A stretch of DNA of 64,000 nucleotides, taken from positions 5,828,001 to 5,892,000 of the forward strand of contig JAYWIR010000003.1 of assembly GCA_036172245.1 (NCBI GenBank), read 5' to 3'. The notes under the pieces were generated by a model, which did no database searches, was not told the origin of the DNA, and worked only from the letters and a program-made list of their open reading frames with translations. The DNA is from Raillietiella orientalis. Taxonomy: Eukaryota. Of the stretch, positions 5,301-54,349 are shown one piece after another (the first letter of the stretch is position 1; each line of letters begins with the position of its first letter). The position numbers and the translations under genes were made by a program.

Positions 5301-6455
5301 AAGAGCGTTTCCAGGAGCGAAGGAAATCTCTTCTCTGCCGTCCTTGCAGCTAGCGGACGTTTTCAACACCAAATCGAAAATCGATTACTCTCCCCTCCCC
5401 CTCCTTCCTTCCCCGATGTTCAAGGAAAGACTCGGTGCCTTCCCTCCGTGCCCTGGAGAACTTGCAACCCACTCCACAAGGAAGTCCAGGTTCCTCCGCA
5501 GCCCTCAGCGGCGAGCCACCCGAACATCTGCATTTTGGCAGGAGTGCCGTCACATGCCCCGGAGATATCAAGCAGAAGGGAGGTGAACTTTCCTTCACGA
5601 GTCAGTGTCACTCGCACAAAGTCCTCAGGTTTCTTCTTTCACTCTACCAGCTGTCCTTATGCTAGGAATGACTTTTTTTTTTTTTTTTTTTTTTGGGAAG
5701 GGGGGGGGGGGTCTTCTTTCACCAAGCTTCTGCTATCGAGTCGGATTGGGTGCTTCTTGTAGATTCCAATGGTGGTGCAGCAGGAAGGCCATTGCTTGGC
5801 TGTGGTCTCTGCGAAGTCTGACAGCAGAGCCAACCCGTCAGCGATGGAGACGTGCCGGAAGCAGGGTTCCCATGGGTCTGCGGGTGCAGCAGTCTCCCAG
5901 GCGGTGTCCGCAACAGGTACTTCTGCCAGCTCACAGGCGGAAATGATGATGCAAAGCGTTCTCCTCTTGAGGCTCAGCTCCCAACCACATCATCTGAACC
6001 AGTCCTGAGCGAAGTCGGGACCGACCGCATTTGTAGAACCTCATCGACAGGCACGTCGTGCTCGCAGATCGCCTTCCTTTGGTTCCCAGAGCATGACTTT
6101 TTCCGAACCTCATCCTGGAGACCTCCAATGGAGCAAGCACATCTCCTACATCAAAGTGATCCTCGGATCCCTACGATTCCAGGAGGGGAAGATACTGGAA
6201 TTTGGGATTCGAACGGAAAATGAGATAAAGAAACCGCTGGGCTCCAGCCAGGTCGAAAATTCTTTCAGATGAGAACTCCGAGCTGCAAAGGACAGCCACT
6301 GCGTCTCACGAACGGCTACTTCTAGAGCAGGGAAGCTGTGCTTCGGTTTCCTGAATCCTGTATTCCACTAGTTCTCATGCTGGACCGTCACGAGATTCCG
6401 GATACACAGAGATCGTTGCTCTCCTCGTTCCCAGGGCACGGAGAAATCACAGGAT

Positions 6456-6845
6456 GCAGCCACACGCCCGAGTTGGCGGAGGTGTGGCCACGGTCTCCGC
6501 GCGTGGCGGTGCCAAGCGTTACGGGTTCGAATCCCACCCGGGGAAGGATCGACGTTGAGAATAGGGGGCGCATCTTGGATTTCGAGTCCTCCCCGCAGGA
6601 TGACTCTGGCTGGCCTTTACGCCCTGGGTGCGGCACAGGTGGAAGCCGTAAACAGGATGATCCCGTTGACTGGCAGAGATCGGAAGTTGACTCTCGGGGT
6701 CCTTTCAGGAAAAAAACAAAGAGCACCGGTTCCCTTCGGAGTGAGCACGGAACAGTTCGGTCGCCACAATGGAGGTGGTCGATACCCTCTCGGGTGTTTC
6801 CTCTCCAGGGTGACAGAAGCGCTCTGCTCCCTTCAGGGAAATTAC
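6456..6845 (+). mobile_element. Internally deleted copy of the composite element
   Basis: Head gcagccacacgc..tggcggaggtgtgg..gggttcgaatcccac..ggatttcgagtcc..gcaggatgactctg aligns to 36411-36590 and then jumps to sequence aligning with ~37216-37452. Confidence 0.72.
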
Positions 6846-9800: not shown

Positions 9801-11481
9801 TTCTTAGGCTTCGCAACTCCTTCCGTACGCTCAGATTCGGCTGTTCACAGTGAACTAATGAATAGCCCTCGATGCTTTCAGGTCAAATAAAATATCGGAC
9901 TGCTTCCGGCTTCCAGTCGGGCTTTCTTACTCGCCCTCTAGCTTCTTCAACTGCCAGAGTAGAACCTTTAATTCCCTTTCAAGAGGATGCGAAAAGAGCA
10001 CCGAGCGAATTCCAGAGTCTCTTGGTGTCACACAGCTCGTTTTCATAAACACCACTAATATGTAGAACGTGACAGTAATAGAATGGGGAGCAAATACGAG
10101 TTTCTGCATCCTTCTCTTAGATATTGCTGTCTCCATGCTGTGTTGAGTTTGTTCCTGAAATCATGAGCACTGTTTCGACGCTGCAGTCACTTCATAAACC
10201 TCTGAGAATCCCTGTCTCATTATCTCTCTCAGCTCAGCCGAATTCCTTTCTTTCTTGAGATACAAAATGAATGCCATACCAGAGAATCAGTATCCAAAAC
10301 CAAATGCATCTATCAAGATTGCAGCCTTGGCAAATCCCTCAGCGTTTCGTGAGCAACATTTTCTTCGTGCAGTCCTTCGTCCTCATCCAAAGTGACAAAC
10401 GACAGGGGTGTTAATTCAAGCAGGCTGCCTTGTCCATCACGATGACTACGTTCAACTCATTTTGCCCGTGGTCTCCCTGTCTCTTGGGATCGTGGTACAT
10501 CGAGATGAAATGGGTTCTTGAAGGCTTAGCCCAAGATGCAGTCTTCGTTGCCAGCTTTCTAGAGATGAGAGAGGAATTGAGTGTTGCGACAATCTTAACA
10601 ATACCTACTTAATGGATTTCCTTCTTCTCTTTTTCACGGGATGACCAACTTGAATCAGTGAGCGCAACAACTGAATTTCTCCCCGCTTTTTCCGACTAGA
10701 GCCGGCTAGTCCATGGAGGTTTTTTTTCTTTTCTTTCTTGATCCTTTCGGATTCAGCCCTTCTGAATTCATCTCTATTGAAGGTGTCCAGAGTCAAGACT
10801 CAGCATTCATTAAGAGAAAAATGGCGAGATGGAAGGTGACCTCTTCAGTGACGAGTTCTTTTCAAAAAAGGGATTCAAGGAATCTCTCTTCGCAATAATG
10901 AGCATGTACTGATCTCATGGAATCCACTGGTTGAGCAAATCATCTTGAGCACTCCGTTCGAACACTGTGTTCGTGCACCCATCTTAGCGCGGATGAGCCA
11001 CGGATACCGTCAGTAACGTCTGAGTTGACTGAGAATAAAACAACGACGTCCAAAGACGACAGGGGAACAACACAGAGACTTTGAAAGGTACCTCCTGTAT
11101 TTTTCGTGATGAGTCTTCATCTTCTTGATGAGCAGATGCGAGCAGCCATTTTAAGTTGAAAGCTATGAAGATTGACGCAGACTTCATTGAAGATGGATGT
11201 CTTCATGGGGAGAATTCCTAAAAAAATGAGGATCCTTCACGATTCCTAAACCTGACAACTTCAACATCCATAGAGGAGCTGATGAAACTCCAATCTTATG
11301 CCAGGCGACTATCTTCTGAGGGTTCACCCGAATGAAGACATTCTGAATATCTAACCGAGCACCATAGGTTGAGTACCGCGGAGCACCAGTGCTCTGTGCT
11401 GCAAATGCAATCTTCTCCACACGTAACCTACTCTTATGCGCGTTGCATCTCACCTGGATATGGGTATGGACAGTAGTAGCA

Positions 11482-12634
11482 TCCATGCTGGCGGAGTGTG
11501 TCTGAAGTCTCCGTGCGCGGTGACAAGCGTCGTGGGTTTCGAATCCCCCACGCATGATGACGCTGGCTGGCCTACGGGCCTTGAGTGAGGCACTGGTTGA
11601 CACCCGGTCACGACGGGGCGTTTATTGATAAAACCTACATGTCTGGGGCAGGTCGTTTGATCCTACCACGTTATTTATGGATACGAGAAGGAACCTGCCG
11701 GGATCTGGCACGCAGGCCAGCGGGGTTCGCCTCCGTAGCACAGGAGAAGGGGGAAGAAACAAAAAGAAAAAAACAAAACAAAAAATACAGTCAAAAAATT
11801 GGAGGGAGGGGACTCGGGAAGGGATCACTGTGTTCTGGAGGGTGTCCTCTGCATCCTTGTAGGGATGCCGGCAAGTTCCTGTTTTATGGTTCCTAGATGG
11901 GGCCATCTTGGTGCTGTCCTCATGAAGAGGACAGCAAAATAGATGACGTCCCTGTCGTCATGGCCTTCTTTGGCGTTGTTATTCCATGCAGCCACGATCT
12001 TGCCCGTGGGCAGCAAAGTGCTGCTGGGGATGCAGCCGGCGTGAGGGCGTCGCATAGGAAGAGGCTCTTTCAAACGTCTCTGGCGTTGCCGCTGGGGTCT
12101 CTAAGGGTCGCGAGAAAGAGTCCGGAGGCCGGAAGGCAACAAAGTTCACTAGGAGGTATGGGAGGGATTCCCGCTCCCCGTACTTTGCATAATTTGGGTT
12201 CACACGCATCCCGTGTCCACAGATGCCGATGGACGTTGCACGGGAGGCCCCAGTGCAGCAGCATCAGTGCCGACTCCTGCCACTTTAAGGGGAGGGTGTG
12301 GCACTGGTGGAAGCCGGAAATCCCCAGATGCTTCCGTTGACTGGCCGGGATTGTGGATGAACGCCCCGGGGTCCTTCCAGGACACCAAGGAGTCTTTCGG
12401 GGTTCTGCTAGCAAGCATAAAAGGAGACTTGCTTCAGAGACTTCCTGGATTCATAGAGTGGTCCCCTCCCTGCTTACTCCGTATAACTTGAAGAGTGACA
12501 CGCACCCTCGGGTGGCGTGGACCGTGTTGAAGAGCTTCGAGAATCCCCCCCATCCCGCCTTCCTTCTAAGGAGGACAACGGTTCTTCAGTGCTTGACGAA
12601 GCTGAAAAAAGAAAACCCGAAAGAAAAAGAAAAG
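11482..12634 (+). mobile_element. Diverged copy of the composite element with a monomeric tRNA-like head
   Basis: A-box TGGCGGAGTGTG 11489-11500, B-box-like ggtttcgaatcc ~11535-11546. The minus strand encodes TLPLKWQESALMLLHWGLPCNVHRHLWTR and IKQELAGIPTRMQRT. Ends aagctgaaaaaagaaaa. Confidence 0.8.
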
Positions 12635-15600: not shown

Positions 15601-16384
15601 TTCTAGAACGTCTTCTCCCCTCGTATTCCTTCAGAGCACTTTCCGCGTGTGGCGACTTCCTATCAGCAGACTCCGTAGCGGACGCTGCCCTGACATTCTC
15701 CAATATCGGAATCTGCCATTCCAAAGCAGCGTTTTCCTTCCTTCTTTCGAGTGCTGAGTTCTTCCAGTCGGTAGCAGTAGGCCAGAATGGCGAAGACAGG
15801 AAGAGGGCATTTCCCAATAATCGTGATTTGAGCCTCCCAGGAAGATCTTGTTGTCTTCCATTGCAGATCGAAAAAAAGTCGGACGGAAAATTTCACCTCG
15901 GTCAGTTCTTCTAAGTCGGCTTCGCGGATCCGTCAAGAGCATTGAGGTTTCCGTTTCCTACCACGAATGGAGTCGGGGGCGCATCGCAGACCGACGGCTC
16001 AAAACAGCTGGCAGCATGAGAACGCAAAAGAAGGCTGTGCTCAACGTTCTCGTCAATGCAGATTTCTCTATCGCGGGAGCGCAAAAGACAACGAAGTTCC
16101 TTCCACTTGGGATCTTCCCAGATGGCAAAAGCTGGATGCGGAGAAGGGCCTCACCAACCGCACCCGTTCATGACTCTGATCCACCGATTTGAATATTCAC
16201 GTGCCCTACAAGGAGGATTGCGTCCCGTGAAGCCACACGACCCCTTTTTGCATGGAAAATGCCTATGTAGCATGCGCACGACATCCCTAGGCGACCGTTC
16301 GGATAAATACTCGGCACGATAGCCCCAGTTGAGTTCCTCTGGTTGCCGGAGAAGCTCCTTCGGTAATGGGGGATGCGAAATTGA

Positions 16385-16487
16385 GGCCAGCGTGAGGGCG
16401 TCGCATAGACAGAGGCGCTTTCAAAGGTCTCTGGAGTTGCCGCCGGGGTCTCTAAGGGTTGCGACAAAGAGTCGGGAGGCCGGAGGG
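16385..16487 (-). repeat. ~100-bp fragment of the LINE body of the composite family
   Basis: Aligns directly with ~12035-12137 (gcgtgagggcgtcgcatag...ggggtctctaaggg...ggaggccgga). Confidence 0.85.
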
Positions 16488-28300: not shown

Positions 28301-29711
28301 TTCGCCTCCAACTGGGTGCGCGAGCTCAAAAGCATCGCACTCGCCTTGGACTGCTCTCAGAATGCAAAGATCACCTTGAAGACGAAGAGGGTAGGTTTCC
28401 GGGTGGACTTCCTTGCGCAGCAGAGTGAGAGGTTCCTCAGCAGTCGAGACCGCATCAGATGACGCGCCATCTCTGGGAGCCAACTACCCACCTGAGGCTC
28501 GCCTAATTGCTACGCTGGTGGGGGAGGACGCAGTGATGTTCTGGAGCGCCCCTGCAGGGATAACAAGGATAGCCATTCCTCATGCAGGCTGGAAAGAGCA
28601 GGAGCCCTGCAAATTGTAGAGCACAGATGCTGAAAAGGAAACACACTAAATTGTTTCGTCTCCCTCTGCTTGGAGATGAGCCGAAAGGCATGCCTTTCGG
28701 AGGCACAAAGAACATGAATTAAGATTGAAGGAGTCTTCTCGACTCTGGCTAAGGAAGGAATCCGTCCAAACCAGTGCAAGTGATATCCCCTTGGAGCGGC
28801 ATGAAGGAATTCTGCCTGCGCTTCAGAGTGCAAAAAGATGCTCCTTTCGAGATTCTCAATACAGGCATCCCTTGCTGGCGGAGATTGCCGTACAGTTCGG
28901 CAGTGAAGAACACAGAAGTTCCATGGAACTCCTCGAGTGTCTGAATTTGCCAAAGAGTTTCGTACCACCCTGCGATGTGCTCAACATCGAGAAGGCTGGT
29001 TCGCAATGACTTGCCAATGCCCATCATTTCTTAACAGAATACGCAAACATGAAGCCTTCCCCTCCATCTGCTGCCAACGCGATTGATGCTTCTCTGGGTC
29101 GCTGCAGTAGCAAGCCTGGAGGCGGCTTCGTGAACAAAGAAGGAAGAAAGACCTCATGTTATTTCGAAACTTCGAAAGCGTGGGATTTTCCAGGCATCTC
29201 GACTCATCCTTCTGAGCATCGAATGAGAACGCTTTCATCATCTGAGATTTCTTGGAATTCTTAGAAAGGCTTGCGAGCTTCATGCGGAGACGACTTCAGG
29301 CTGAAGCCGGACGGCTGCAGAGTCCACAGAAACTGGGCCAATGGCGCTCTGGTCCAACTAAGAAAAATGGAGGCTCTTCCTTTTACTGTGGAGGAGGCTG
29401 CCAATTTTTACAAGGTCTGAATCGAATCTCATGATTCCGAAAGCTATTCTCTGAGTCACAAAGATGTACTGATGCTGATCACGAGGCAGGTGAATCGCTT
29501 CAGTTCGAAGAATACAGAGCATCTTAATCTCGCGGAGTTCGCCTCCAGCTGGGTGCGCGAGCTCAAAGCGTCGTGCTCGCTTTGGGATCGCTCTCAGGAT
29601 TCAGAGATCCCCTTGGAGACGAAGAAGATACGTTCCACTGTGGACCTTCCTTCCGCAGCAGAGTGAGAGTTTCCTCGGCAGTCGAGCCCGCATCAAATGA
29701 CATACCATCTC
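28301..29711. repeat. Diverged direct duplication (~28301-28473 vs ~29538-29711)
   Basis: ttcgcctcca.ctgggtgcgcgagctcaaa...gcagcagagtgagag.ttcctc.gcagtcgag shared by both copies. Confidence 0.9.
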
Positions 29712-32088
29712 AGGAAGTTGCGTCAAGGCCAACGATCCAGAGAGAACCCTTCTCAGAATGGCAATTGATAACACACTTTTGAGTATTCCTTTTTGGTCAC
29801 ACAAAAAGGAGACACTCAAAAGCACAGCTATTGGTAGGTATTATTTGTTGTGATGATCCAAGGAAATGGAAGAAGCAATCGAAAAGGAATGGTGAGAAAT
29901 TCAATTTTTTTCAAGATGGAATTTCAACTGCAACATGGCGACTAGGAAGGCTAGGAAGACAGTGGATCTCAAATCTCAGCACAAAAATTTTCTCATTTTA
30001 GAAAGAGAGTGGTCCTGCAAAAGTATTTTTTCTATTCTCATGGATCGCCTGGAAACACAACCTTTCATCTGAAAGTATCAGTTGCTAAGTGCCAGTGCCC
30101 AAGAGGGAATTCAGAAATTCAGAAAAAGCGACTCTTGCGTGACCCTCGAGAAAATTGAAACACTCCCGACGCAGGTATGCCGATTTTAGAGAGAAGCATC
30201 GAAATAAAAGTCATAAAATGATCTGATTGTGATAATTAAATCATAGAATACACCTCTGCTTTATACTTTTCACTTTTCCAGAGATTCCTGCATCCACCGT
30301 GTGCGGGCAAGTCCGTGGAACACCGAAGGAAGTAGTGAAGGACCGTGTCTGAATTTTCACAAGTTCCATCTTCATTATTTGAGGTATCGGAGTCCCAATT
30401 CAAGATAATGGGATGACCGTCAGATTGCCGGATGGTTCCCGTACTGTTCTTACTGAGGCTTCCTTTTATTAACGAGTCTTCTGCACGTGGGCACAAGTCT
30501 CATAATTCTGAACGTCTGCGGACTGAACCACCTGAAGGTCAGGGTGGCAGTGCTGTGGCGCCACCTACATGACTTTTCTGTTCTTGTATTTCTACTTGTA
30601 CTTAAATTCGTTAGAATTTTTTTATCCGTGATCAGAGAGGTGAATACCCGGTGATCCCATTTGGTGCGCTACCTTCCAGAGCGCGAGTTCGAACCACAGA
30701 AAATCCGTAAACAAGAAACTCATTCAAGTTCCTTCGGATTCCTCTGAAGAATACTCAGGCATTAAGAGCGATGGGACCAGTAGAGAGCTAACATTTTCTT
30801 GATGGAAATTCCATACTCGAGAGCAACGTCAACTTTGGATTGGATCAAACTCCCTCGAAGAAATGTTTTGGCAAAGGCAAGCACATCCACCTGCTTCGGA
30901 GGACATCCACTGCAGAAAACAAGGACACTACTCTGAGGTGGTCCAGACTAGTGCGTTTGCAGGGATACTTGCATTCCTCGAGTACTTTCTGCTCTTCAGC
31001 TCAACTTGGAGGCAGGAGATGAGGATGGACGCAAAATAACGGCGTCGTTCGACACACGCGTGCTTCTTTTCTTCGGGAAGCAGCACCCGAATTTCAAATC
31101 GGAGACTTGTGTGGTCGTTTGCGACGATCACTTCGCTTTTGCCACAATGTACAACAAGGACAACGTACACAGGAAACACAGAGCGGCGTCCTGCCGCCGT
31201 CTCGGAGTCAAACAAAGAAAGACTTTAAGCACTCCAAGGAACTCGGAAGTGGAATCGTACTGAATTTCGAATTGAAATTCGGAAACTCGCAAACATTTCT
31301 GTCAGCTGGAAGCGGCAGATCGTGGCTGGAGACTATACTAACTTGAATAAACAGTCAATCATCAGCTAATAGATGATAATGTTACTTCTCTGAAGTTCTT
31401 GGCTTCCTCTATCCCTGGGCCCCCAACGCTTCTCTCGGTTCTTCCTGGGGAGCATGACTGATCACCCTCATGAAGAAAGTGCAGTGGTCATAAGCAACTG
31501 ACGATGCTTTCATTCCTCGAAAGAAGAAGACCGGACTGAGTTCGTCAAAATTCTAGGTAACGGTTCTTCTATAAATAAAAATCACGGTTTTCATTCTCTA
31601 TTACTCTAGGTATTAGAGCCTTAAGATTGGAACGAAAGCTTTATGAGTGTTTGTCCTTCTAAAAGGCACAACGGACCCCAGCGGCAGTCCAGTGAAAGAG
31701 AAACAAGTAAGCACAATCTCTTATTGCCTTGACGTGCTATCACTTGACCAGGCATCGAGAGAAATGACCTTTGCAAAGTAAGCGCGAACCATCCGATTTC
31801 AAAGAAAGTTTCAAGCGTTGAAGCGACGGCTTTCGAAAAATCTACACAACGCACAGAGCATTTTGCATGCCATTCTTTCCTCGTACTCTCCAAGTTCCAG
31901 AAACGAAGCAACTCTGCGCAGTCAAAAGTCTCAAGAAAGAATGGATCCCAGGAGCTGCATGATCCGTGTAACCGTGCTGCCGTTCGATCTTGGTTTGACA
32001 AATTACCTGTGCACACTGGGAATCGAATCCGCCACAGCGTACTGGACACAAGTGGAATGCGTCATGACGAACACGATACTTGGAAACG

Positions 32089-32350
32089 GGTCAGCAGTTT
32101 TGTTGCGCCCGGAAGATGTACCCATGAGGAATCTTTGCGTCTCACAGTCTTTCTGAACCACTGCAAGAGGATCCGGTTGACCAAGAGGACGCAGGAAAAC
32201 TTCAATGAGACTTTGAAATGGGCGCTTCGCCACGGTCAGCAGTTTTGTTGCTCCCGGAAGATGTACCCATGAGGAATCTTTGCGTCTCACAGTCTTTCTG
32301 AACCACTGCAAGAGGATCCGGTTGACCAAGAGGACGCAGGAAAACTTCAA
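32089..32350. repeat. 117-bp direct duplication with a 28-bp spacer
   Basis: 32089-32205 and 32234-32350 differ at one base. Confidence 0.97.
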
Positions 32351-34439
32351 CTCTGCAAGTTTTTGATTTTCATCCTGGTAAAGGAACAAAAAGGCACTCT
32401 TAGAAGACGCTACACTGTATGAACTTTACACGATCTTCCATTTTTCGGGGTGATGATTTTGTTAATGAGTTGGTATCCATCAGTGATTGCATCCAGCTGA
32501 AGATTCCTCTCTGCGTCGGCACAGAGACCGGCGAGAACGATTTCGTTTCTGCGCAGAGCACTCCAGTGATGTGTGGCGATCATTTTCCGGGATCGAAAAA
32601 GAGTGGCATTCAACGATCCACCACAGGATTTTGCATCCTTCGTGATTTCATCTTCTCTCCGTGGGAAGCGAAACGCAAAGCTCATTAAAAAGAGGACCTA
32701 AGTAGTCTCTGGGAATCGCTGGCAGTTCTTTGTCATCACGAACTTTCCGAGCAGCCGGGATGTGTTTTATGAATGTTTCGAAAATGGATCCGAGTCGTGC
32801 GCACCAAGGCGTGGGCCGATCGGAGCGTGACCTGGGCATTGGACATTTCCTGCCCGTCGTGTGTGTGCTGTGCACTCTCTCTGCGCCACACAAAACGGAA
32901 AACACAAATCTGCGCTCGGCAGTGCGAGCGATTCGACGGAGAGGCGGACGCTCGCGAGTTCACGCAAATCCTGTCCCCGATGGCATCCCGGCTCCATCCA
33001 AGGAGGCTGCCTTTTCACATGGGCAGAGAACGGTGGTTCCATCGTGCCCGTGGTTCCAGCAGAACGTGGCGGGGGGGTGGGGCTCAAGAGTGCCGATATA
33101 CTTTGTTCGCAGAAAGTGAGGCGGACTGAGGGGGAGGGGCTCGCCTTGGAATTCTCTCGGGTCCTCGGATAACTTCGTCCTGCGGCCTGCTGACGCCGGA
33201 AAAAATTGCAAGCAAAGGAACTGATAAAAGGGGAAAAAATAATCGCCATTTTAGCAGTGCGTGTGATAAACCGGTAAACTACCAAAACCGCGAAATGGTG
33301 GTCATCCGACACGTAGAGCAATTTATCATTAAAATTCCAAGTGAAATGGAATTTTTGGATCATACAGACAGTAATGAAAGGCTTGTAAATAATCGTGCTA
33401 TTGATACGATATTTTCCCTTACATCCTTTACGTATTACTCATACAGGTAATATCAATTTATTGCACTGGAACAAAAATATCTACCAATTTATTCGATAAA
33501 TGATTCAAAGAGAAGCTCTGTAACTCTCCTTCCTTATGGATCCATGACCTGTATATGATCTAAGGAGCGAATTTCGATTACTTTCCAAACCCTCTATGAA
33601 ACTATGGAATTTTTAATACTGACTGGTACATACTTATGTTTAAAAATATTCGAATGACATGAATATTCATGTTCGAAACATTAAATAAGTACGTTGAACC
33701 TTCGACGCTTCCACAAATAAAAGGCATCTTTTTATCATTCTTCCTCTTCTTCTTAAGATATAATCACAGTCGTTGCTTTGAAATTCCAGGCGCACAAACA
33801 TGTGAGAGTCAGCAACATTCAGTTCAGAATTCATCTCGCAGTGGGGTGTGCTGTCATCCAGTGAAGCACGGGAAGCTGCATGCTCAAATGATGCCAGATG
33901 CGAATTAAATGCTGCAGAATTACGCTTCCGGCTTCATTTCCATCTCAAGCACATCTTCCACAGGAGACGGTACGAGTCATGGGCAAACAAAGTCTCTACG
34001 ATCTCATTTCTAGTTTCATCATCCACCCTGTACCATTGCCGTATCATTTCCACTTTGTAAAAACTCATCAGCAGCTGACTGAGATTTGCTTGGGGCTCTA
34101 CCAAAGCTCTCCTCTTTGTGCCATTCGGTTGCCACCGACTCGCTTGCTCCAGTTTGTTCCGTGTGCAGCAAAGAATGAGTCCTCCGAATGCTCGATTTCC
34201 TGTACGGACGCTGCTTGTACAGTGTCGTTCGCCGGGAAAGAAAGGGACCGAAACCCAACACGGTTCGATTTATTGGCATTTGCAAAACAGGTGTGCATTC
34301 CATGTCATTGCGAGATTTCCTTTGGTGTATTGCGGAAAAAACACCCTCATGGACCCCATTCACTCCTCTGCAAACGAGAACTAGCGCTCTTCTCCAGTCA
34401 TGGTAGGTTATAGGATGCGCCGGTAGGATCCTTCCAGGA

Positions 34440-35347
34440 ATGATAGCATGAGGAACACGGATCACAAGAACGGTTCGCCCACACGATTCCGTCCACGGGA
34501 AACAGGTCCACTTCATCTGGGTACTTTTTCCTAGCATGGGATGGACGCGGAGGAAATCTGGAAACCGTTTCATCAGAAGCAAAGCAAGTAGCTCAGCATC
34601 CTGGCCCCACCAGAAAGGTGGCGTATCAGATGGTAAGCTGATAAGAACACATTTTTTCATTGCATATTTCTCGTTCCTACAAGATATATCCCCGGAAGCA
34701 TAGTTCCTGTCCTTCCTTCTAGGTCATAATCCTGTTGCCTCATCTTCTCAGGGGGACTGTTGCTGTTCGTTCACATCCAAATTTTCCCATGGGTTGCGGG
34801 CGTCATCAGGGATTTGACCCAGCCGGTGCGTCCGGCACACGTCCCTGCCGCTTCGTATTGGTGACGGTACCATTAGCTTTCTCATCTTATCCGTGCATCT
34901 TTCCGGGATGCCTATTCCCCGTATTACTCCATCATTCCTTGGATCCCACGTACCAGGGGCTTCTATCACAAAGACAGGTACAGTATATTTTATGTCTTTC
35001 GCGAAGATGGATGTTGCAATTGCTTGATGTTTTTCTTCCTCCTTCCTTCTGACGGTGCAAAAGGTTTCTCCGCCATTTTCAAAAAGGAACGCATTATCTG
35101 ATGCCCCCATTTTGTCGTCCTTCTGGAGCACTAAATCCGGGAGTAGTGTGGAATCCGCTCTTGGGACCTGTTGATTCTCCGAGATCGCTATTCATTCTGC
35201 GGAGTGAAAGCATGGAGATGGCGGATCACAAAAGCGATTGGTCTACACGATTTCATCCACAGGAAACTCAGGTCCATCTCATCTAGATACTTTTCCCAGC
35301 ACGGAATGGACGCAGAGGAAATCTGGCAACCGTTTAGTCAGAAGCAA
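34440..35347. repeat. Diverged direct duplication (~34440-34581 vs ~35202-35347)
   Basis: cggatcacaa..acacgatt..tccac.ggaaac..aggtcca..tcatct..atggacgc.gaggaaatctgg.aaccgttt..tcagaagcaa shared by both copies. Confidence 0.88.
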
Positions 35348-36365
35348 GAGGTCTGCACGAACACCAAGGAGGAAAATCTAAAGATCTGGCAGAGCAAACG
35401 AATCTGGAGATGCTCGAAAATTCCAAAGTGAGTAATGGATGGAGGAAGAGTCGCACGCGCTCTTTCCTGTAACAACGGTAGCCACCCGGAAATGGTAACG
35501 CTGGTAACGTCATTGCCGAATAAAGTAGGGAGTTCTCTTGCAACATTGGAGGAGTCGAAAAACTCCTGGGAGACGGGAAGTAGAGGAGGGAGTTGGCGGT
35601 GGACGGCGCCACTCCTCGTCTCCGGGTAAAGGGACTGCTTCGGTGGAGTAAACAGCTTGGTGTGTCTCCCGAAGAACTCGTGGCCCCTCCCCTGTGTGTA
35701 AACACTGCCGTGTTCCCACTCCGGTGGAAACAGGATGTTCTGCTGTTTCTGCACTGAAGATTCCAGTGCAACCAGCACAGGCACATGGTTTCTGGAAGAG
35801 TTGCCTCCCCGAACTGTTCCGAGTAAGGTGCGGTGGAATTTTGTTGAACTGCAGTGCCCCCGAGGGCTTGTGGCAGAGATTCGCTCCGGCTCTCAGGCAG
35901 CCGCAGGACATCATTTGGACATGGCGGCGATTCTCCTTCACTCAAGGCGGGCTGAAGACGGCCGCTGTGATGGCAACCATCTGTTGCATTCGAGCCACAG
36001 TGACAGCCCGCCTCGTGTTGGAATCAACTTCGCGACGAAGAGAGGTCACCAGCATCGCGACAGACCTCATGAGGTGGCCTCATCTACAGGAATAAGTCAC
36101 CAGGAGATGTTTACTGACCAGAGCCACTTCTAGAAAGGAAGGAACGTCATTAACCAAAGACCTTCGTCCCCACTTTCCCGTCTTTTTTTCACTTGTACTT
36201 TGTCCCCTCCCTCCGTTCCCAACTTTTTGGAAGCCGGTCTGCGTGCTAGTGGTCATCCCGGTTAAACTTTTTTTTTTTGTTTTTCAGGCGTTTCTTTTTC
36301 AGGGTGCTCTTCTCCCCTTCTTTCTTGTAGCTTGTTTTTTGTTTTGTTTCGTTCTGTAAATAAAA
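35200..36365 (+). mobile_element. Decayed L1/Tx1-like LINE 3' end
   Basis: CKHCRVPTPVET..FW followed by an ORF2-end-like helical stretch, a T-rich 3'UTR containing ggtctgcgtgc (also in the other 3'UTRs) and AATAAA near 36360. Confidence 0.55.
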
Positions 36366-36408
36366 GGCCTGGAGTAACCGGGTAACAACCAAATGATGAA
36401 GTACGCGA

Positions 36409-37826
36409 CCGCAGCCACACGCTCGCACTGGCGGCCGTGTGGGTGCGGCCTCTGCGCGAGACACCACGCGTTGCGGGTTTGAATCTCCACGTGGAGAATG
36501 GACGCCGAGAATGGGGAGTGAGTCATGAGTTTCGAGTCCCCACTGCGCGCAGGATGACTCTGATTGGTCTGATAGGCTTCGGGTGCGACACTGGTTGACA
36601 CCCGGTCGCGCCGGGGCGTTTCTTTATAAAATAAACAAACACGTCTGTGGCAGGACGTTTGATCCTGCCACGTTACTTGTAACTATGAGTAGGAATCTGC
36701 CAGGATCTGGCACGCAGATCAACGGGGTCGCCTCGGCAGCACCAGGGATGGGGAGATAAACAAAAAGAACAGCAGAAAACATACAGTTCCCAAAACGGGG
36801 GAGCTCGGGAAGGGATCCGTGTGTGCTGGACGATGTCCTCTGCATCCTTGTAAGAATGCCGGCAAGTTCCTGTTTTAGGATCACCAGAGAAGCCATCTTC
36901 ATGAAGAGGGCAACAGAATAGATGGTGCCCCTGTCGTCCTGGCCTTCTCTGGAGCTTCTCGATGTGGTCACGATCCCGCCTCGTGGACAGCAAAAAGTGC
37001 TTCTGTGGATGAGGCCGGCGTGGGGGCGTCGCGCAAGAAGAGGCGCTTTGAAACCTCCCTGGGGTTGCCGCCTGAAGTTCCAAGGCTCGAGACAAAGCGT
37101 CCCCAAAAGGACCAGAGGGCAACACAGTCCACTGGGAGGTGCGGAAGGGATTTCCGTTCCCTGCACCGTGCACAGTTCGGGTCCACTTCTCCTCCCCGTG
37201 TCCAGTGATGCCGACGGATGCGGCACTGGTGGAAACCCGATGTCGCCGCTGACTGGCCGCGATTGACAGCTGACCCTATGGGGTCCCTTCCAGGAACCAA
37301 GGAACCGGTTTCCCATGGTGTTCACTTCCGGTTGTGAAAGTGAAGTCGTCTCCTTCCCTCTTCCCAAGTGAGCGTACCCTCCATCAAACACCATGGAGCT
37401 GGTTGATTGATGCCTCTCTAGAGTGTCAAGAAGTGCTCTGCTTCCTTCAGGGAGAGGACCCTTCGGAGAAATTGGGAAGCATCCCTTCGTGATTCTCTTC
37501 AAAGGAAACACGGAGCGGTTCCCTTGCGAGTTCCCTTTGGAGAAGAAATGAAGAGAAACCCCGTCCGGAGAGAATGAGGAAAAGATTTCCTTCGCAGTCC
37601 CCCTACCAAGCAAAAGAGGATCGGATTCCTTTCTCTGGAGCCTTTCTGGACTCATAGACCTAAATAACCTAAACAGTGGTACGCACCCTCGGGTAGCGTG
37701 GACTGAGTCAAGGAGCTCTGTGAATCCCCCCCGCCCCTAGGGGATCAGACAGTTCTTTAGCACTTGGCAAATCCTACCCTCTCCCCCTCCCCTTAAAAAA
37801 AAAAATAAGCTGAAAAAGAAAAAAAA
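36409..37826 (+). mobile_element. Composite element: dimeric tRNA-like head + antisense L1/Tx1 ORF2 3' end + A-rich tail
   Basis: A-box-like 36429-36442, B-box-like ~36476-36486 and ~36528-36540. The minus strand encodes HWTRGGEVDPNCARCRERKSLPHLPVDC (zf-RVT-like). Ends aagctgaaaaagaaaaaaaa. Confidence 0.8.
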
Positions 37827-37869
37827 ACTGGAAGGAAAGCAGCAGAAACAGAAGAACCCAAAAGGATTT

Positions 37870-38790
37870 CCATTGTCCTAGACCAACCTCTTTTCTGCTA
37901 GTGCTGTTCTCCCTAAGGGACGCAAGGGGCAGCGTAAACCCGGCAAGGTGGGAAGTGACGTGCTGCATAGCAGCAAAGAAGAAAGCATTGAAGACGCGGA
38001 CAACTCGGAAAGTGACGGACGCTGCGACCCCGAGTGTCCCACCCCTAGGACTATTACGTTGGGGAGAGCTGCTCGAGACGCCTCTGTGTTGGAACATCGG
38101 CACCCTCCCTTTCGAGTGGCACGAGTCGGCGCTGTTGGCGTTGCATGGGAGAATCACGTGCAAAGCACGCCTTCATTACTGGACACGGGGGAGCGTGGAC
38201 GCTCAGTGCGAGAGGTGCGGGAAGAGAGAGACACTCCTACACCTGCTATTAGACTGTACTGCCCTCCGACTCCTTTGGGATCGCCTCGCGACGATCCTAG
38301 GTATCCTAGTGAGCATTTTCAGACGCCAAGGGACATTTTCAGACGCCTCCTCGCGCGTGCCGCACTGCAGCCAGCCGCCTCCTTCGCAGTTCTCTGCTGT
38401 CTTCGCGAGATCGTAGCGGTCTGGAACGCCAGGAGAAGAGGCCGAAATGGCAGGGACGCCATCCACTAGGCGTGGATCTTCCTGAAGATTCCTCCTGGGC
38501 GAGATACGGAATGAAATTGTCATCATCATGAACAAGATGCAAAGGACGCCTGGCAGCGTACTGTAATCCCTTCTTCGGTCTCCCCCTCCCCGTGCATAAT
38601 TTCCCTTCCCCTATTTTGTTTGTTTGTTTTTCCCTTCCCCCACACTGCCGAAGCGGAGCTCACCGGTCTGCACGCCGGTCTTCGACAGGTCCATTCTACG
38701 TGGTAGAACCAAAGGTTCTACCACACCGATGTATTTTTGTTATTCCATATAAGAAATGCCCAGCATAACCTGGCGATGATCATCCTTCGC
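37870..38790 (+). mobile_element. L1/Tx1-clade LINE 3' end (ORF2 C-terminus + 3'UTR)
   Basis: TLPFEWHESALLALHGRITCKARLHYWTRGSVDAQCERCGKRETLLHLLLDC is a clear zf-RVT CCHC motif, followed by AVWNAR, a T-rich 3'UTR and a hairpin at 38700-38724. Confidence 0.88.
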
Positions 38791-41700
38791 CGATAGTAAC
38801 GATCTCATCGTGATCTTTAAAAAATAAAGTGAATAAATCAATGATGAAATACAGGGACTTCCGAAAAGTTTGGTGTTTGGGTGAAGTGGGGCGGTTCTCT
38901 GTGATTCTAGAAGGCTCGCAAGCTTTTGGGGAACAAGGGAAACTGTCTAATACTCTCTCGCTGATTCTCGAGCCACAACTTTCTAGATCTGTTTGTCAAT
39001 GACAGCTCGATGCTTTGACATGTGGCAGAAGCCACCTCGGAGCAGAGGGAGGTGGAGGGGATCACTCGCTTTCATTCCACTCCCAGGCAGCGCACTGAAT
39101 ACTCGAAGAACCGTGAGTCGCCCGAAACTACCTCCAGATCAAGTGAAAAACAAAGAGCAGCAGGTCCACTCATCGGCGTAGCATGAATGGTGCCAATGAG
39201 TAATTTCCTTCGTCTTCATGAAATCGGAAGCCTTGGCGGCGCAGGGCGCTCTTTCTATCGAGTGCATCCATCATGATCCATCAATCATAAGTCATCACCG
39301 AGTACTGAAAAGGTCAACTTCGTGATAGAACTCGGACGGCTATCTCATTCGAAAGTTCTGCACACGGCTTCCTGGCTTCGGTGCTTGAGGAGCAGTTGCT
39401 GCGCCTCTGATCTGCTCAACCAGGAAGCGGACCTTGCTTCAAGAAATCACGATAGCCCCTAGAATCTTCCAGGTGGGCTTCGCGGAGCTCCTCACGACGT
39501 CCATTCCCCTCGTGCTCATTGCCTCACCATGAAACATGAACAGTCTTAAATACTTAAACAGACCCTTCGTGTCTTCAGAGCAATCAAGATATGGGCGCAT
39601 ATCGGAGCCGATCGATCACCTTAAAAAAAAACATACATTAGAAATCCTGGGCAATCGCCTTATCTCTTCTTATCTTCTTGCTACAGACCTTTTTCTCCTT
39701 TCTGTCCCTCCCTCCCCTCTTGAGCATTCCCTTTTTCACGGACAAGCAAGACTATTTAGAAATAAACTGATTCCCTGTTTTTTTTAACTCTCTATTTATT
39801 TATTTATTTTTTAAAAAGCTTTCCCTTTCACTTCAATAAGCACAGATGGAAGATGAAAAATTTCGTGCCGCCACTGCAGCCATAGCTAACTCTCCTATCC
39901 ATCAAATTCCATTAGCTTCCTCATGACCCTGGAAAAATCATACTCTGGATTCAAGCATGCAGCGGTGACACCCTAATCCCTTTCTATAACCCTCTTCAAC
40001 TTGCAGGCATACAATCAGCTTGACACAATCTTTCCCCATTCATCCATTGCTCCCTTTCATTGAAATCAATGACCCGAATCGATTACTGTTCATCCATCGA
40101 TGCTGATCCGTGTTCCAATGACCATTCTTGTTCTGGTGCCTGGCAAAAGTCTATCCTCTCAACATTCCTCTCTTGGACCCCAGGTTCTTGGGACTTCCTT
40201 TTTGGTTCGGAAGCGTTCAGGAAGTTTCCATCGCTGATGGTCGTATGCATTTAGGAGTAAGAAAGTCCCCCTCAACTGGCAGTATCTTGACGGATGGTCT
40301 TCACGATGCTCGTGCATCGGACTGTCCGACGAGAACTGCCTAGAGCTCTCATGGGGTGCTCTTGATAGAAACCTACTTTCTTAGACTGCATGTTTTGGAG
40401 CTCCACTCTTCCAGCTTCACGTTTCATCCAAAGCTGTTGGTACTGAAGCATTCTCCGGAAGATGTGCAGCGCATGCGCGCCGCCCTCTCTTTTTTTGCCG
40501 TGATGTTGGGATCCCTATCTACTCCATGAGCTATGAGCTCATGGGTTGCTTATGCCTGGGGGAAACATCAGCTGTAGCTGAGCGAAGGATAGCCTCCCTT
40601 CTGCTCCTCGTAGAGAAGATACGATTAGAATTCAAATGGATAGACAAAACGTTTTCAACTGCCCTCGAAGTGGATCTCACTCTGTGCCTTTCTTTTCTCT
40701 CCTTCCTTCTTTTCCCTTCCCTCCCTCCTCTTCCGGTTCCCAAGTCTTCGTCCTTATTACGTAGTAGGCCCCCCATATTAAAGAATGACTGCTTTTTGCA
40801 GAGGATGAGAACCATTCCCAACGTTAGACGGGTGCTGTTGCAGAAGCTTGCTATCGTTTAGCATCATCTCGTTTCCACCTCCTGTTTCATCTTCCCGTTT
40901 TTATCCTGTCTTATGATTCAAAAAACCCCTCATTTTCTGAGAAGCCTCACCTCCCAAGAAGAAGAAGCTTTGACCGCTGATTCCGGACAGATCTGTGTTG
41001 CCCCCTTGAGTTTCGTGGGCTGAAAAATGAAAGAATAAAATCAAGCGGAATCTTCCTAGCCGATCCGTTTGACTTTGTAGCCTCACCGCACGTCAGGTGG
41101 ATGCGACCACCGCACCTTCAGGCTGTTCAGATTCTCTTTACTCCATGGGCACAGTTTCCAAAGAAAATTTCGTCATGGTGAATTATGATGGATGAGAGAT
41201 CTCCGAAATGCAGCGTGCAAAGCAGATTCTTACTCCACTGCGTGACAGGCATCACCGTGCTGGTCTCTGGTTTCCAAATACGTTCATTGGACCTAGAGGA
41301 ATATGATCTTGTCTTCTCAGACGTGGAGGTTCAGCAGCCTCGCAAACAAAGCACCTTTTTATAATTGAACTTTTCCGGCCGATAGAAGTTACAACTAAGA
41401 GTAGTCCCGGAGAGCTAGAAAAGCCTGGATCAAGCGTTCCTGGAACTCGGAACACTCGGATGATGACCTCGGTCAACATCTCCGAGCACTTTGGATGGAA
41501 AAGTGCATTGTTCTTCCTCTTCGCTTGTATCATGGGATGAAAATGGATCTCCATCAGTATGGTGCTCGACTGTCCAGAATCGTGAGAATGGTAACCGTTT
41601 TTCGTCGAGAATTCTTCTTGTATAGCGTGAGAAGTGGTTACCCTGCACCTATGGCAAAGCATTGAGATCTATATGGCGTCCCGATCATCTTTAGTGGCAG

Positions 41701-53064: not shown

Positions 53065-54349
53065 ATACAGATTCCATGAATCCAGGGAGGTTCCACAGGA
53101 AGGAGTCCGTTGCTCTTACGCTTGGGTAGGGAACCCCAAAAGGAACCTTCGAGCCCTGATTGTTTACGAAGGGAACACCGGAGGGAATCTCTTCCTTATC
53201 CTCTCCGGCAGGATCCCCCGGAGGGGATCACTCCTCATTTTCTTCTCCGAAGGAAGCCTGCAGGGGAACCGCTCCGTGTTTCTTTGAAGAGAACCACGAA
53301 GGGACGCTTCCCAATTTCTCCGAAGGGTCTCCCTGAAGGAAGCAGAGCACTTCTTGACACTCTAGAGAGGCATCAATCAACCAGCTCCATGGCGTTTGAT
53401 GGAGGGTACGCTCACTTGGGAAGAGGGGAGGAGACGACTTCACTTTCACAACCGGAATCGAACACCGTGGGAAACCGGTTTCTTGGTTCCTGGAAGAGAT
53501 CCCCTAGGGTCAGCTGTCAATCGCGGCCAGTCAGAGGCGACATCGAGTTTCCACCAGTGCCGCACCCGTCGGCATCACTGGACACGGGGAGGAGAAGTGG
53601 ACCCGAACTGTGCACGGTGCAGGGAACGGAAATCCCTTCCGCACCTCCCAGTGGACTGTGTTGCCCTCCGGTCCTTTTGGGGACGCTTTGCCTCGAGCCT
53701 TGGAACTCCAGGCGGCAATCCCAGGGAGGTTTCAAAGCGCCTCTTCTTGCGCGACGCCCCCACGCCGGCCTCATCCACAGAAGCACTTTTTGCTGCCCAC
53801 GAGGCGGGATCGTGACCACATCGAGAAGCTCCAGAGAAGGCCAGGACGACAGGGGCACCATCTATTCTGTTGCCCTCTTCATGGAGATGGCTTCTCTGGT
53901 GATCCTAAAACAGGAACTTGCCGGCATTCTTACAAGGATGCAGAGGACATCGTCCAGCACACACGGATCCCTTCCCGAGCTCCCCCGTTTTGGGGGCTGT
54001 ATGTTTTCTGTTGTTCTTTTTGTTTATCTCCCCATCCCTGGTGCTGTTGAGGCGACCCCGTTGATCTGCGTGCCAGATCCTGGCAGATTCCTACTCATAG
54101 TTACAAGTAACGTGGCAGGATCAAACGTCCTGCCACAGACGTGTTTGTTTATTTTATAAAGAAACGCCCCGGCGCGACCGGGTGTCAACCAGTGTCGCAC
54201 CCGAAGCCTATCAGACCAATCAGAGTCATCCTGCGCGCAGTGGGGACTCGAAACTCACGACTCACTCCCCATTCTCGGCGTCCATTCTCCACGTGGAGAT
54301 TCAAACCCGCAACGCGTGGTGTCTCGCGCGGAGGCCGCACCCACACGGC
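53065..54349 (-). mobile_element. Second young copy of the composite element, inverted relative to the 36.4-kb copy and truncated at both ends
   Basis: Near-identical reverse complement of ~36434-37655 over most of its length. The plus strand carries the same zf-RVT-like peptide, 3'UTR hairpin and reversed tRNA-like head. Confidence 0.85.

What the first reader, a model, noticed from the sequence alone, without database searches (positions are those of the whole stretch)
36409..37826. tRNA-headed element whose body is an ANTISENSE L1/Tx1 LINE 3' end (multi-copy composite)
Seen: four loci (6456-6845, 11482-12634, 36409-37826, and 53065-54349 inverted) share one layout. A tRNA-like A-box/B-box head is followed by a short linker and then reverse-complemented LINE sequence: the 3'UTR plus ORF2 C-terminus (zf-RVT) in three copies, and a more internal part in the deleted 6.5-kb copy. 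The diverged 11.5- and 36.4-kb copies stop at about the same LINE position and share the tail aagctgaaaaa(a)gaaaa on the tRNA strand. Established: tRNA-derived SINEs normally borrow the LINE tail in SENSE orientation. Inference: this is either a long SINE that captured an antisense LINE fragment and kept spreading, or a LINE carrying an inverted Pol III unit. Either would make antisense RNA against the autonomous LINE, a possible self-propagating LINE suppressor.
Basis: partly seen in the sequence, partly recalled or inferred. Interest (0 to 1): 0.85.

Follow-up and report, generated by a model that had tools for sequence, protein, structure and literature searches.

The report
SINE-like repeat carrying a nested LINE
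This is an old, dispersed non-coding repeat into which a truncated LINE fragment once inserted backwards and then travelled along as a passenger, an ordinary kind of composite retroposon with no sign of being a LINE-silencing device.

Summary
The repeat family is real. Four copies share a 5' module: 36411-37827 (+), 54349-53065 (-), 11472-12634 (+) and 6456-6839 (+). Three of them carry a LINE 3' end on the opposite strand. A profile of those three bodies hits a free-standing LINE at 38159-38772 (+) with E 2.9e-52.

The new result is that the LINE piece is a nested insertion. It is 5'-truncated and flanked by a 13-16-nt direct repeat (0 of 200 shuffles for each of two copies tested). The 6.4-kb copy has that site once and no LINE at all. 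All modules of the 11.5- and 36.4-kb copies are about equally diverged (76-85% identity), and no flanks are shared, so the composite spread as one unit.

The "tRNA head" is weak. ARAGORN (default) and Rfam (E<=10) find no tRNA. What remains is a B-box-like motif in 4 of 4 copies, an A-box-like motif in 1 of 4, and an A-rich tail on the same strand. Polarity is unsettled, because the 6.4-kb copy's flanking repeat fits the opposite strand being the RNA.

No genome, reads or relatives could be reached, so copy number and expression are untested. The antisense-suppressor idea has no support. Gibbon LAVA already shows an antisense LINE module in a composite retroposon.

The parts
36411..36580 (+). 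5' module of repeat 'X' (copy c36). It holds two B-box-like units (around 36472 and 36529-36539) and a linker.
   Evidence: The nhmmer head profile matches 36411-36595 at E 5.7e-56. The start GCAGCCACACGC is shared with c6. B-box match with <=1 mismatch at 36529.
36581..36595 (.). Left copy of the target-site duplication around the nested LINE (GGGTGCGACACTGGT).
   Evidence: The direct-repeat test scored 10, reached by 0 of 200 shuffles.
36596..37215 (-). Nested, 5'-truncated LINE 3' end. The 3' UTR with two stem-loops spans about 36596-36970. The ORF2 C-terminal zinc-knuckle remnant spans about 36971-37215.
   Evidence: The nhmmer body profile hits free LINE B at E 2.9e-52. BLASTP gives E 2e-14. 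Pfam zf-RVT scores 0.24 here and 0.029 for c54. The 10-bp hairpin shows 2 compensatory pairs.
37216..37230 (.). Right copy of the target-site duplication (GGATGCGGCACTGGT). In c36 and c54 it adjoins a deletion of about 63 nt in the LINE relative to c11.
37231..37827 (+). 3' module of X, ending in an A-rich tail (37795-37827, containing AAGCTGAAAAAGAAAA).
   Evidence: nhmmer post-LINE block and tail block match here; the tail block matches 37630-37827 at E 3.9e-59. The tail motif is shared with c11.
53065..54349 (-). Copy c54, 96% identical to c36. It lacks about 23-25 nt at the head end and about 160 nt of tail. Nested LINE about 53568-54187. Duplication copies at 54202-54188 and 53567-53553.
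11472..12634 (+). Copy c11, 76-85% identical to c36 in every module. It has a single B-box unit. Nested LINE about 11598-12293. Duplication copies at 11585-11597 and 12296-12308.
6456..6839 (+). Copy c6 without any LINE. The insertion site is present once (GGGTGCGGCACAGGT, 6627-6641). The copy is flanked by a 15-nt direct repeat at 6443-6457 and 6838-6852 (13 of 15 identical).
   Evidence: Head and post-LINE profiles overlap at 6627-6640. The flanking repeat was reached by 14 of 300 shuffles. Homology to c36 ends at 6839, matching c36 37453.
35530..36404 (+). Free LINE 3' end 'A' (degenerate ORF2 C-terminus plus 3' UTR). It ends AATGATGAAGTAC, 6 nt before the X head.
   Evidence: tblastn with the LINE B protein, E 7e-10. 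3' UTR alignment.
37952..38852 (+). Free LINE 3' end 'B' (zf-RVT-type ORF2 C-terminus plus 3' UTR). It ends AATGATGAAATAC.
   Evidence: Pfam zf-RVT E 7.5e-5. 11 of 12 phmmer hits carry zf-RVT. Alignment.
16381..16487 (-). Isolated 107-nt fragment of the same LINE subfamily, 89% identical to c11's nested LINE.
   Evidence: E 1.9e-21.

Best explanation
The locus is one copy of a non-coding, non-autonomous retroposon family, here called X.

ANATOMY. X has a 5' module with degenerate Pol III-type box motifs, possibly tRNA-derived. It also has a 3' module that ends in an A-rich tail on the same strand.

ORIGIN OF THE LINE BODY. In an ancestor of three of the four copies, a 5'-truncated LINE of about 0.6-0.7 kb inserted into X in the opposite orientation. 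It consisted of the ORF2 C-terminus plus the 3' UTR. The insertion was by target-primed reverse transcription and duplicated 13-16 nt of X. The composite X+LINE then kept multiplying as one unit, with the LINE piece as a passenger.

THE LINE-LESS COPY. The 6.4-kb copy is either the pre-insertion form or a derivative that lost the LINE by recombination between the two duplicated sites.

SHOWN
- The family and its four copies.
- The antisense LINE identity of the body.
- The flanking duplication.
- The single-site, LINE-less copy.
- Equal divergence of all modules.
- Absence of shared flanks.

INFERRED
- Retroposition on the head strand.
- Pol III or any other promoter use.
- The LINE partner that mobilises X.

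An antisense orientation may simply be the tolerated one. In sense orientation the LINE 3' UTR would bring several T-runs onto the transcribed strand.
For: - FAMILY: self-blastn and nhmmer find 4 of 4 heads linked to the same post-LINE block, and no solitary heads or tails in the window.
- LINE IDENTITY AND ORIENTATION: body profile vs free LINE B 38159-38772 (+), E 2.9e-52. BLASTP E 2e-14. The 10-bp 3' UTR hairpin is kept with 2 double changes.
- DUPLICATION: c36 has CGGGTGCGACACTGGT and CGGATGCGGCACTGGT. c11 has GTGAGGCACTGGT and GTGTGGCACTGGT. Each was reached by 0 of 200 shuffles. c54 shows 15 of 16 identical by eye.
- BOUNDARIES: protein similarity to LINE B stops at 12297, at the right-hand repeat. 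The left-hand repeat adjoins the LINE 3' terminus, as defined by alignment with LINE A and B.
- LINE-LESS COPY: c6 carries the site once (head and post-LINE profiles overlap at 6627-6640).
- ONE UNIT: c11 vs c36 identity is 76.3% (head), 81.8% (LINE UTR), 78.9% (LINE ORF remnant), 84.8% (post-LINE) and 77.3% (tail).
- DISPERSAL: alignments stop at the element ends, with no shared flanks.
- POLARITY: an A-rich tail is shared by c36 and c11. B-box <=1 mismatch in 4 of 4 copies and A-box <=1 mismatch in c11, 47 nt upstream, all on that same strand. The c11 head MFE is a three-arm cloverleaf.
- T-RUNS: 1 T>=4 run against 11 A>=4 runs on the head strand of c36.
- PRECEDENT: gibbon LAVA has an antisense L1ME5 module (PMC5174737, Fig. 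1 legend, passages read).
Against: - Only four copies, all in one 64-kb window, could be examined. Genome-wide copy number is unknown.
- tRNA detectors fail on the head. The cloverleaf-like fold of c11 is no more stable than shuffles (z -0.57).
- The B-box motif is nearly palindromic. It also matches the opposite strand in c6 and c11.
- No significant outer target-site duplication for c36, c11 or c54: 285 of 300, 148 of 300 and 223 of 300 shuffles reached the score.
- c6 and c54 lack the tail, which is unexpected for copies reverse-transcribed from an A-rich 3' end. c6's truncated end is bracketed by a 13-of-15 direct repeat, which fits the opposite polarity better.
- A TTTT run conserved in all three LINE-bearing copies (36873, 11882, 53910) could stop Pol III before the tail.
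- Indel characters and head identity (c6-c36 74.4% vs c11-c36 65.9%) place c6 nearer c36. So c6 may be a deletion derivative and not a true 'empty' progenitor.
Confidence: 0.55

Rival explanations
1. Opposite polarity. The mobilised RNA is the strand on which the LINE piece is in sense. The 'head' terminus is then the 3' end, the A-rich 'tail' is a T-rich 5' end, and the shorter copies are ordinary 5'-truncated insertions. This would make it a LINE-derived, non-autonomous element and not a SINE.
For: - c6 ends internally (6839, matching c36 37453). It keeps the exact head terminus shared with c36.
- c6 is bracketed there by a 15-nt direct repeat, 13 of 15 identical, placed right at the homology limits. 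14 of 300 shuffles reached the score in 60 x 160-nt windows.
- c54 also stops short on the tail side.
- The free LINEs here have no homopolymeric poly(A), so a non-A 3' end is not excluded.
- tRNA detectors do not recognise the head.
Against: - c54 lacks about 23-25 nt at the head terminus, which would be a 3' truncation on this model.
- c36 and c11 both continue A-rich beyond the shared AAGCTGAAAAAGAAAA, as a 3' tail would.
- A- and B-box-like motifs lie in the right order and spacing on the head strand.
- The head terminus shows no similarity to the conserved LINE terminus AATGATGAARTAC.
- c6's repeat begins GAAAT, which also occurs in X about 15-20 nt further on in c36. Internal priming on the head strand could therefore give the same picture (by eye).
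Confidence: 0.22
2. No retroposition of the composite at all. One X copy received a LINE insertion, and the three LINE-bearing copies arose by local DNA-level duplication or rearrangement within this region.
For: - All copies lie within 48 kb of each other, and one is inverted.
- c54 is cut at both ends.
- No significant outer duplications for c36, c11 or c54.
Against: - No flank similarity beyond the element ends in any pair.
- c11 and c36 end at the same two termini.
- Divergence spans 4% to about 20-25%, implying repeated events over a long time.
Confidence: 0.1
3. Functional antisense device. The head drives Pol III transcription through the LINE piece, producing antisense RNA that damps the autonomous LINE. 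The LINE module would be retained for that reason.
For: - The antisense segment covers the LINE 3' UTR stem-loops and the ORF2 end.
- It has been retained in lineages that are about 20-25% diverged.
- There are few T-runs on the head strand.
Against: - The LINE module is no better conserved than the other modules, 79-82% against 76-85%.
- A conserved TTTT lies inside it on the head strand.
- The head is not a recognisable tRNA gene.
- The LINE copies in the window are all decayed 3' fragments. No RT domain was found among the 196 ORFs >=110 aa of the whole window, nor among the shorter ORFs (>=45 aa) scanned in selected regions beside the LINE pieces and copies.
- In LAVA the antisense L1 module lowers mobilisation and has no known function (PMC5174737, passages read).
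Confidence: 0.05

Closest known systems
LAVA (gibbon L1-Alu-VNTR-Alu composite non-LTR retrotransposon) and SVA
   Same: - Non-autonomous and non-coding.
- Built from modules of other repeats that travel as one unit.
- LAVA carries an L1 (L1ME5) fragment in antisense orientation relative to the element (PMC5174737, Fig. 1 legend and text passages read).
- The LINE module there looks like a passenger, since its removal raises mobilisation.
   Different: - LAVA and SVA are Pol II-type elements with a CT-rich 5' end, a VNTR and a true poly(A), and they are primate-specific.
- The LAVA L1 piece was picked up with flanking unique DNA at the 3' end, not by a nested insertion with its own duplication.
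- Here the 5' end has Pol III-box-like motifs, TRF finds no tandem array, and the LINE piece sits in the middle.
tRNA-derived SINEs with a LINE-derived 3' tail (general class; recalled knowledge)
   Same: - A 5' region with A/B-box-like motifs.
- A non-coding body and an A-rich 3' end.
- Dispersed copies, associated with a LINE family of the same genome.
   Different: - The LINE sequence is antisense, internal and bracketed by its own target-site duplication.
- It is therefore not the RT-recognition tail.
- The length of 1.2-1.4 kb is far above usual SINE size.
- The head fails tRNA detection.
Ordinary nested TE insertions (LINE into SINE)
   Same: A 5'-truncated LINE with flanking duplication inside another repeat, and a copy with the unoccupied site.
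   Different: Here the nested product is found at three places with the same junctions and unrelated flanks. So it became the propagating form and did not remain a one-off.

Membership tests
tRNA-derived SINE | The 5' head is recognisably related to a tRNA (cloverleaf or covariance-model hit). | tested here: not met
   ARAGORN default finds 0. Rfam gives no tRNA hit at gathering or at E<=10 on 3 heads. The relaxed ARAGORN call is at noise level. Only the c11 MFE has a three-arm shape, with z -0.57.
tRNA-derived SINE | Internal Pol III A and B boxes in the right order and spacing near the 5' end. | tested here: inconclusive
   B-box with <=1 mismatch in 4 of 4 copies, but the window total of 21 compares with 19 expected. 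A-box with <=1 mismatch only in c11, 47 nt upstream. The consensus motifs used were recalled.
tRNA-derived SINE | The 3' end is A-rich or shared with a partner LINE tail in sense. | tested here: inconclusive
   An A-rich tail is shared by c36 and c11. It is absent from c6 and c54. There is no similarity to the LINE A/B terminus.
tRNA-derived SINE | Copies are flanked by target-site duplications. | tested here: inconclusive
   Only c6 has a candidate (13 of 15 identical, reached by 14 of 300 shuffles). c36, c11 and c54 have none that is significant.
tRNA-derived SINE | Transcribed by Pol III. | not testable with these tools
   No runs were listed. A TTTT lies on the head strand at 36873.
Composite non-autonomous retroposon (SVA/LAVA-like in principle) | Modules of different origin are joined and propagated as one unit. 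| tested here: met
   Three copies have identical module junctions, equal divergence of modules and unrelated flanks.
Composite non-autonomous retroposon (SVA/LAVA-like in principle) | Mobilised in trans by a LINE machinery. | not testable with these tools
   No genome, reads or assay was available.
   The free LINE B scores E 7.5e-5, below the gathering score. 11 of its 12 phmmer hits carry zf-RVT. The nested copies score 0.24 and 0.029 and match LINE B at E 2e-14.
   No RT or EN domain was found in any of the 196 ORFs >=110 aa, nor in 62 shorter ORFs near the LINE pieces. The clade assignment therefore remains untested.

The most novel reading that the evidence does not exclude
A Pol III-driven, tRNA-descended retroposon has carried about 0.65 kb of antisense LINE 3' end for a long time. 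The piece includes the LINE's conserved 3' UTR stem-loops. Every transcript of the parasite's parasite would then be an antisense RNA against its own helper LINE. That RNA could act as a decoy or a double-strand trigger that spreads by using the very enzyme it damps.
Probability: 0.06. Interest if true: 0.7.

Novelty: new member of a known kind. Interest (0 to 1): 0.3.

Why it matters
It shows how a composite retroposon can arise in one step. A truncated LINE lands backwards in a master copy of a small repeat, and the product stays mobile. For annotating this genome, these 1.2-1.4-kb units should be treated as one family and not as separate SINE and LINE hits. The 13-16-nt duplication and the LINE-less copy also give a ready marker for dating the capture. 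Beyond that the element is an ordinary, decayed repeat. Nothing here points to a regulatory or defensive role.

Tried and rejected
- WHOLE GENOME: none is held for this window.
- PUBLIC RUNS: none was listed for 36409-37826, and no RNA holder was listed.
- EARLIER SCAN NOTES: nothing by place, sequence or words.
- PROTEIN WORD-INDEX SEARCHES: the LINE B C-terminus (longer proteins) and the 370-aa antisense frame (near lengths) each gave no hit at E<=1e-3.
- COLLECTION SCANS, HEAD MOTIF: a 22-nt head motif gave 0 matches in metagenome contigs and 0 in genome contigs.
- COLLECTION SCANS, LINE UTR MOTIF: a 19-nt motif gave 57 and 54 loci. All are chance matches of <=33 nt in bacterial or metagenome contigs.
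- RFAM ON THE REST OF THE ELEMENT: only two sub-threshold snoRNA-model matches, E 0.4-0.5.
- TANDEM ARRAY AT 37330-37640: I thought I saw a degenerate array by eye, but TRF finds none in c36 or c54.
- CODING IN THE 370-AA STOP-FREE FRAME 36627-37736 (-): rejected. c36/c54 differences fall 15/17/12 by codon position, with 10 synonymous and 34 non-synonymous, plus frame-breaking indels. No Pfam hit.
- DIFFERENTIAL CONSERVATION OF THE LINE MODULE: not seen.
- TAXON OF THE WINDOW: an Atlas look-up of an MFS-like ORF gave only generic eukaryote clusters.
- COCCIDIAN GUESS: I read passages of PMC4337577 (Sarcocystis neurona genome, rich in old LINEs and DNA elements) because the composition reminded me of coccidia. 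No test links the window to that organism, and nothing rests on it.
- ALIGNMENT A4: it used a wrong frame for the two nested copies, so it is informative only for LINE B against zf-RVT proteins.
- NOT CHECKED: Repbase, Dfam and SINEBase are not available here.
Full report
SETTING

The window is eukaryotic-looking DNA with 45-61% GC. It has almost no recognisable coding sequence. Of 196 stop-to-stop frames of at least 110 aa, only two gave a Pfam hit at E<=1e-3. One is a zf-RVT zinc knuckle at 37814-38413 (+) and the other a weak MFS_1 at 58293-58850 (-). No whole genome is held for it. No public run was listed, and no earlier scan notes exist. Everything below therefore rests on the 64 kb itself.

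Yes, as a repeat family. Self-blastn aligns four pairs:
- 36434-37568 to 54349-53218 (inverted) at 96.2%
- 36522-37232 to 11529-12247 at 74.5%
- 36411-36598 to 6456-6643 at 71.5%
- the tail 37664-37732 to 12483-12551 at 79.7%

I built nhmmer profiles of four blocks: head, antisense body, post-LINE block and tail. The head profile finds exactly four loci (E 5.7e-56 to 4.8e-25) and nothing else below E 0.4. The tail profile finds two, c36 and c11. Alignments stop at the element ends in every pair, so no flanks are shared.

IS THE BODY AN ANTISENSE LINE 3' END?

Yes, for three of the four copies.
- The body profile, read on the strand opposite to the head, matches a free-standing + strand sequence at 38159-38772. 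It covers 624 of 635 profile positions at E 2.9e-52.
- That free copy, 'LINE B', encodes a C-terminal Cys/His motif. Pfam zf-RVT scores E 7.5e-5, below the gathering score.
- A full phmmer scan of 1.84 billion representatives gave 12 hits at E<=1e-3, and 11 of them carry zf-RVT. Two of these have names, and both are plant 'ribonuclease H-like' retroelement proteins.
- The antisense frame of the element (36971-37321) aligns to LINE B at 46% over 56 aa, E 2e-14. On its own it scores zf-RVT E 0.24, and 0.029 in c54.
- The 3' UTRs align as well. A 10-bp stem-loop is kept between the nested copies and LINE B, with two pairs changed on both sides.
- A second free copy, 'LINE A', lies at about 35530-36404 (+). 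A and B share the terminus AATGATGAA(G/A)TAC and then diverge, which defines the LINE 3' end.

No reverse-transcriptase or endonuclease domain is present anywhere in the window.

HOW DID THE LINE GET THERE?

The LINE piece is bracketed by a direct repeat.

| Copy | Left repeat | Right repeat | Test |
|---|---|---|---|
| c36 | CGGGTGCGACACTGGT (36580-36595) | CGGATGCGGCACTGGT (37215-37230) | 0 of 200 shuffles |
| c11 | GTGAGGCACTGGT (11585-11597) | GTGTGGCACTGGT (12296-12308) | 0 of 200 shuffles |
| c54 | 15 of 16 positions identical between the two copies | | by eye |

- The left repeat adjoins the LINE's 3' terminus, as defined by alignment with LINE A and B (…ACCGGGTGTCAACCA).
- In c11, protein similarity to LINE B runs up to 12297 and stops at the right repeat. 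LINE A and B go on matching each other for another 50 residues upstream.
- The piece is therefore a 5'-truncated LINE with a 13-16-nt target-site duplication, which is the signature of an ordinary LINE insertion.
- The 6.4-kb copy carries the site once (GGGTGCGGCACAGGT, 6627-6641). The head and post-LINE profiles overlap there, and the copy has no LINE similarity at all.
- c36 and c54 also have a deletion of about 63 nt at the LINE's 5' edge relative to c11.

DID THE COMPOSITE SPREAD AS A UNIT?

- c11 and c36 have the same junctions and the same two outer termini.
- Their modules are about equally diverged: 76.3% (head), 81.8% (LINE UTR), 78.9% (LINE ORF remnant), 84.8% (post-LINE) and 77.3% (tail), all under one alignment scheme.
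- The composite was therefore already assembled in their common ancestor.
- c36 and c54 differ by only 4%, so copying went on long afterwards.
- With unrelated flanks, transposition of the composite is the simplest reading.
- The free LINEs A and B sit at unrelated target sequences, which speaks against a site-specific LINE hitting X repeatedly.

Whether c6 is the progenitor form or lost the LINE by recombination between the duplicated sites is open. c6 shares a 65-nt head duplication and a middle segment with c36/c54 that c11 lacks. Its head is also closer to c36 (74.4%) than c11's is (65.9%). Both points favour the deletion route. Either way the duplication stands.

IS THE HEAD A tRNA-LIKE POL III UNIT, AND WHICH STRAND IS THE RNA?

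This is the weak part.

Against a tRNA-like head:
- ARAGORN finds no tRNA in the window.
- Rfam finds none at gathering or at E<=10 on three heads.
- A relaxed ARAGORN call in c6 is worthless. The same setting gives 48 calls in the window and 28-46 in five shuffles.

For the head strand being the RNA:
- A B-box match with <=1 mismatch lies on the head strand in 4 of 4 copies. The motif is near-palindromic, however, and the window total of 21 equals chance at 19.
- An A-box match with <=1 mismatch occurs in c11 only, 47 nt upstream.
- The c11 head's MFE is a three-arm cloverleaf with a GUGGG…CCCAC arm around the box. It is no more stable than shuffles (z -0.57).
- An A-rich tail on the same strand is shared by c36 and c11 and is followed by further, different A-rich sequence.
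- c36 has 1 T>=4 run against 11 A>=4 runs on the head strand. The LINE 3' UTR is T-rich in sense, so only an antisense insertion would spare a Pol III transcript. This is an inference. One TTTT (36873) is nevertheless conserved in all three LINE-bearing copies.

Against the head strand being the RNA:
- c6 and c54 lack the tail.
- c6 is bracketed by a 15-nt direct repeat at 6443-6457 and 6838-6852, 13 of 15 identical. 14 of 300 shuffles reached the score.
- That repeat sits exactly where homology to c36 ends (6839). It is what a 5'-truncated copy would look like if the opposite strand were the RNA.
- No significant outer duplication was found for c36, c11 or c54.

I put head-strand polarity at roughly 55% and the opposite at roughly 22%.

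FUNCTION

Nothing supports an antisense LINE suppressor.
- The LINE module is not better conserved than the rest.
- The long stop-free frame across it (370 aa, 36627-37736, minus strand) evolves neutrally between c36 and c54. Differences fall 15/17/12 by codon position, with 10 synonymous and 34 non-synonymous.
- The LINE copies in the window are decayed 3' fragments.
- No expression data could be reached.

COMPARISON WITH WHAT IS KNOWN

Composite non-autonomous retroposons that carry other repeats' fragments, including antisense ones, are established. In gibbon LAVA the L1ME5 module is drawn in antisense orientation, and removing it raises mobilisation (PMC5174737, abstract, Fig. 1 legend and discussion passages read). 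SVA and LAVA are described as composite elements in the listings. I saw only titles and abstracts for those other papers.

The present element differs in three ways. Its 5' end has Pol III-box-like motifs, it has no VNTR, and it acquired its LINE module by a nested insertion with its own duplication.

I could not check Repbase, Dfam or SINEBase. Two searches of the held library turned up no description of a tRNA-headed SINE with an internal antisense LINE. Those were keyword searches, not an exhaustive review.

VERDICT

This is a real, multi-copy composite repeat. It is best read as a SINE-like retroposon with a hitch-hiking, backwards LINE fragment. It is a new member of a known kind, of modest interest mainly for repeat annotation and as a clean example of module capture. 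The bold reading, a self-spreading antisense damper of its helper LINE, is not excluded but has no positive evidence.

Noticed in passing
36392-36404 and 38840-38852 (+): Two otherwise strongly diverged LINE 3' ends finish with the same 13-nt terminus AATGATGAA(G/A)TAC and have no homopolymeric poly(A). Together with two conserved 3' UTR stem-loops, this suggests a LINE family whose RT recognises a specific 3' end.
   Followed up: partly
36405-36410: LINE A's 3' end lies only 6 nt (GCGACC) upstream of the X head, in the same orientation. LINE B's 5' edge lies within about 125 nt of X's A-rich tail. So c36 is sandwiched between two LINE 3' fragments. No duplication that would order these events was found.
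   Followed up: partly
36627-37736 (-) and 53080-54156 (+): A 370-aa (359-aa in c54) stop-free frame runs across the nested LINE and X in a frame other than the zinc-knuckle frame. It has no Pfam hit, no protein relatives, and a neutral substitution pattern between the two copies.
   Followed up: yes
21150-21409; 56175-56225: These are self-complementary stretches that match their own reverse complement, at 75.8% over 269 nt and 90% over 51 nt.
   Followed up: no
32089-32205 / 32234-32350; 28301-28479 / 29538-29717; 34437-34582 / 35201-35347; 18691-18866 / 22201-22024: Other short repeat pairs in the window (99%, 82%, 80% and 70% identity), unrelated to the element studied.
   Followed up: no
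whole window: Only 2 of 196 stop-to-stop frames >=110 aa have any Pfam hit at E<=1e-3. Long open frames occur on both strands in GC-rich stretches. This looks like repeat-rich, gene-poor or intron-rich eukaryotic DNA of an unidentified organism.
   Followed up: partly
6923-6937: A run of about 14 G lies just downstream of the 6.4-kb copy.
   Followed up: no
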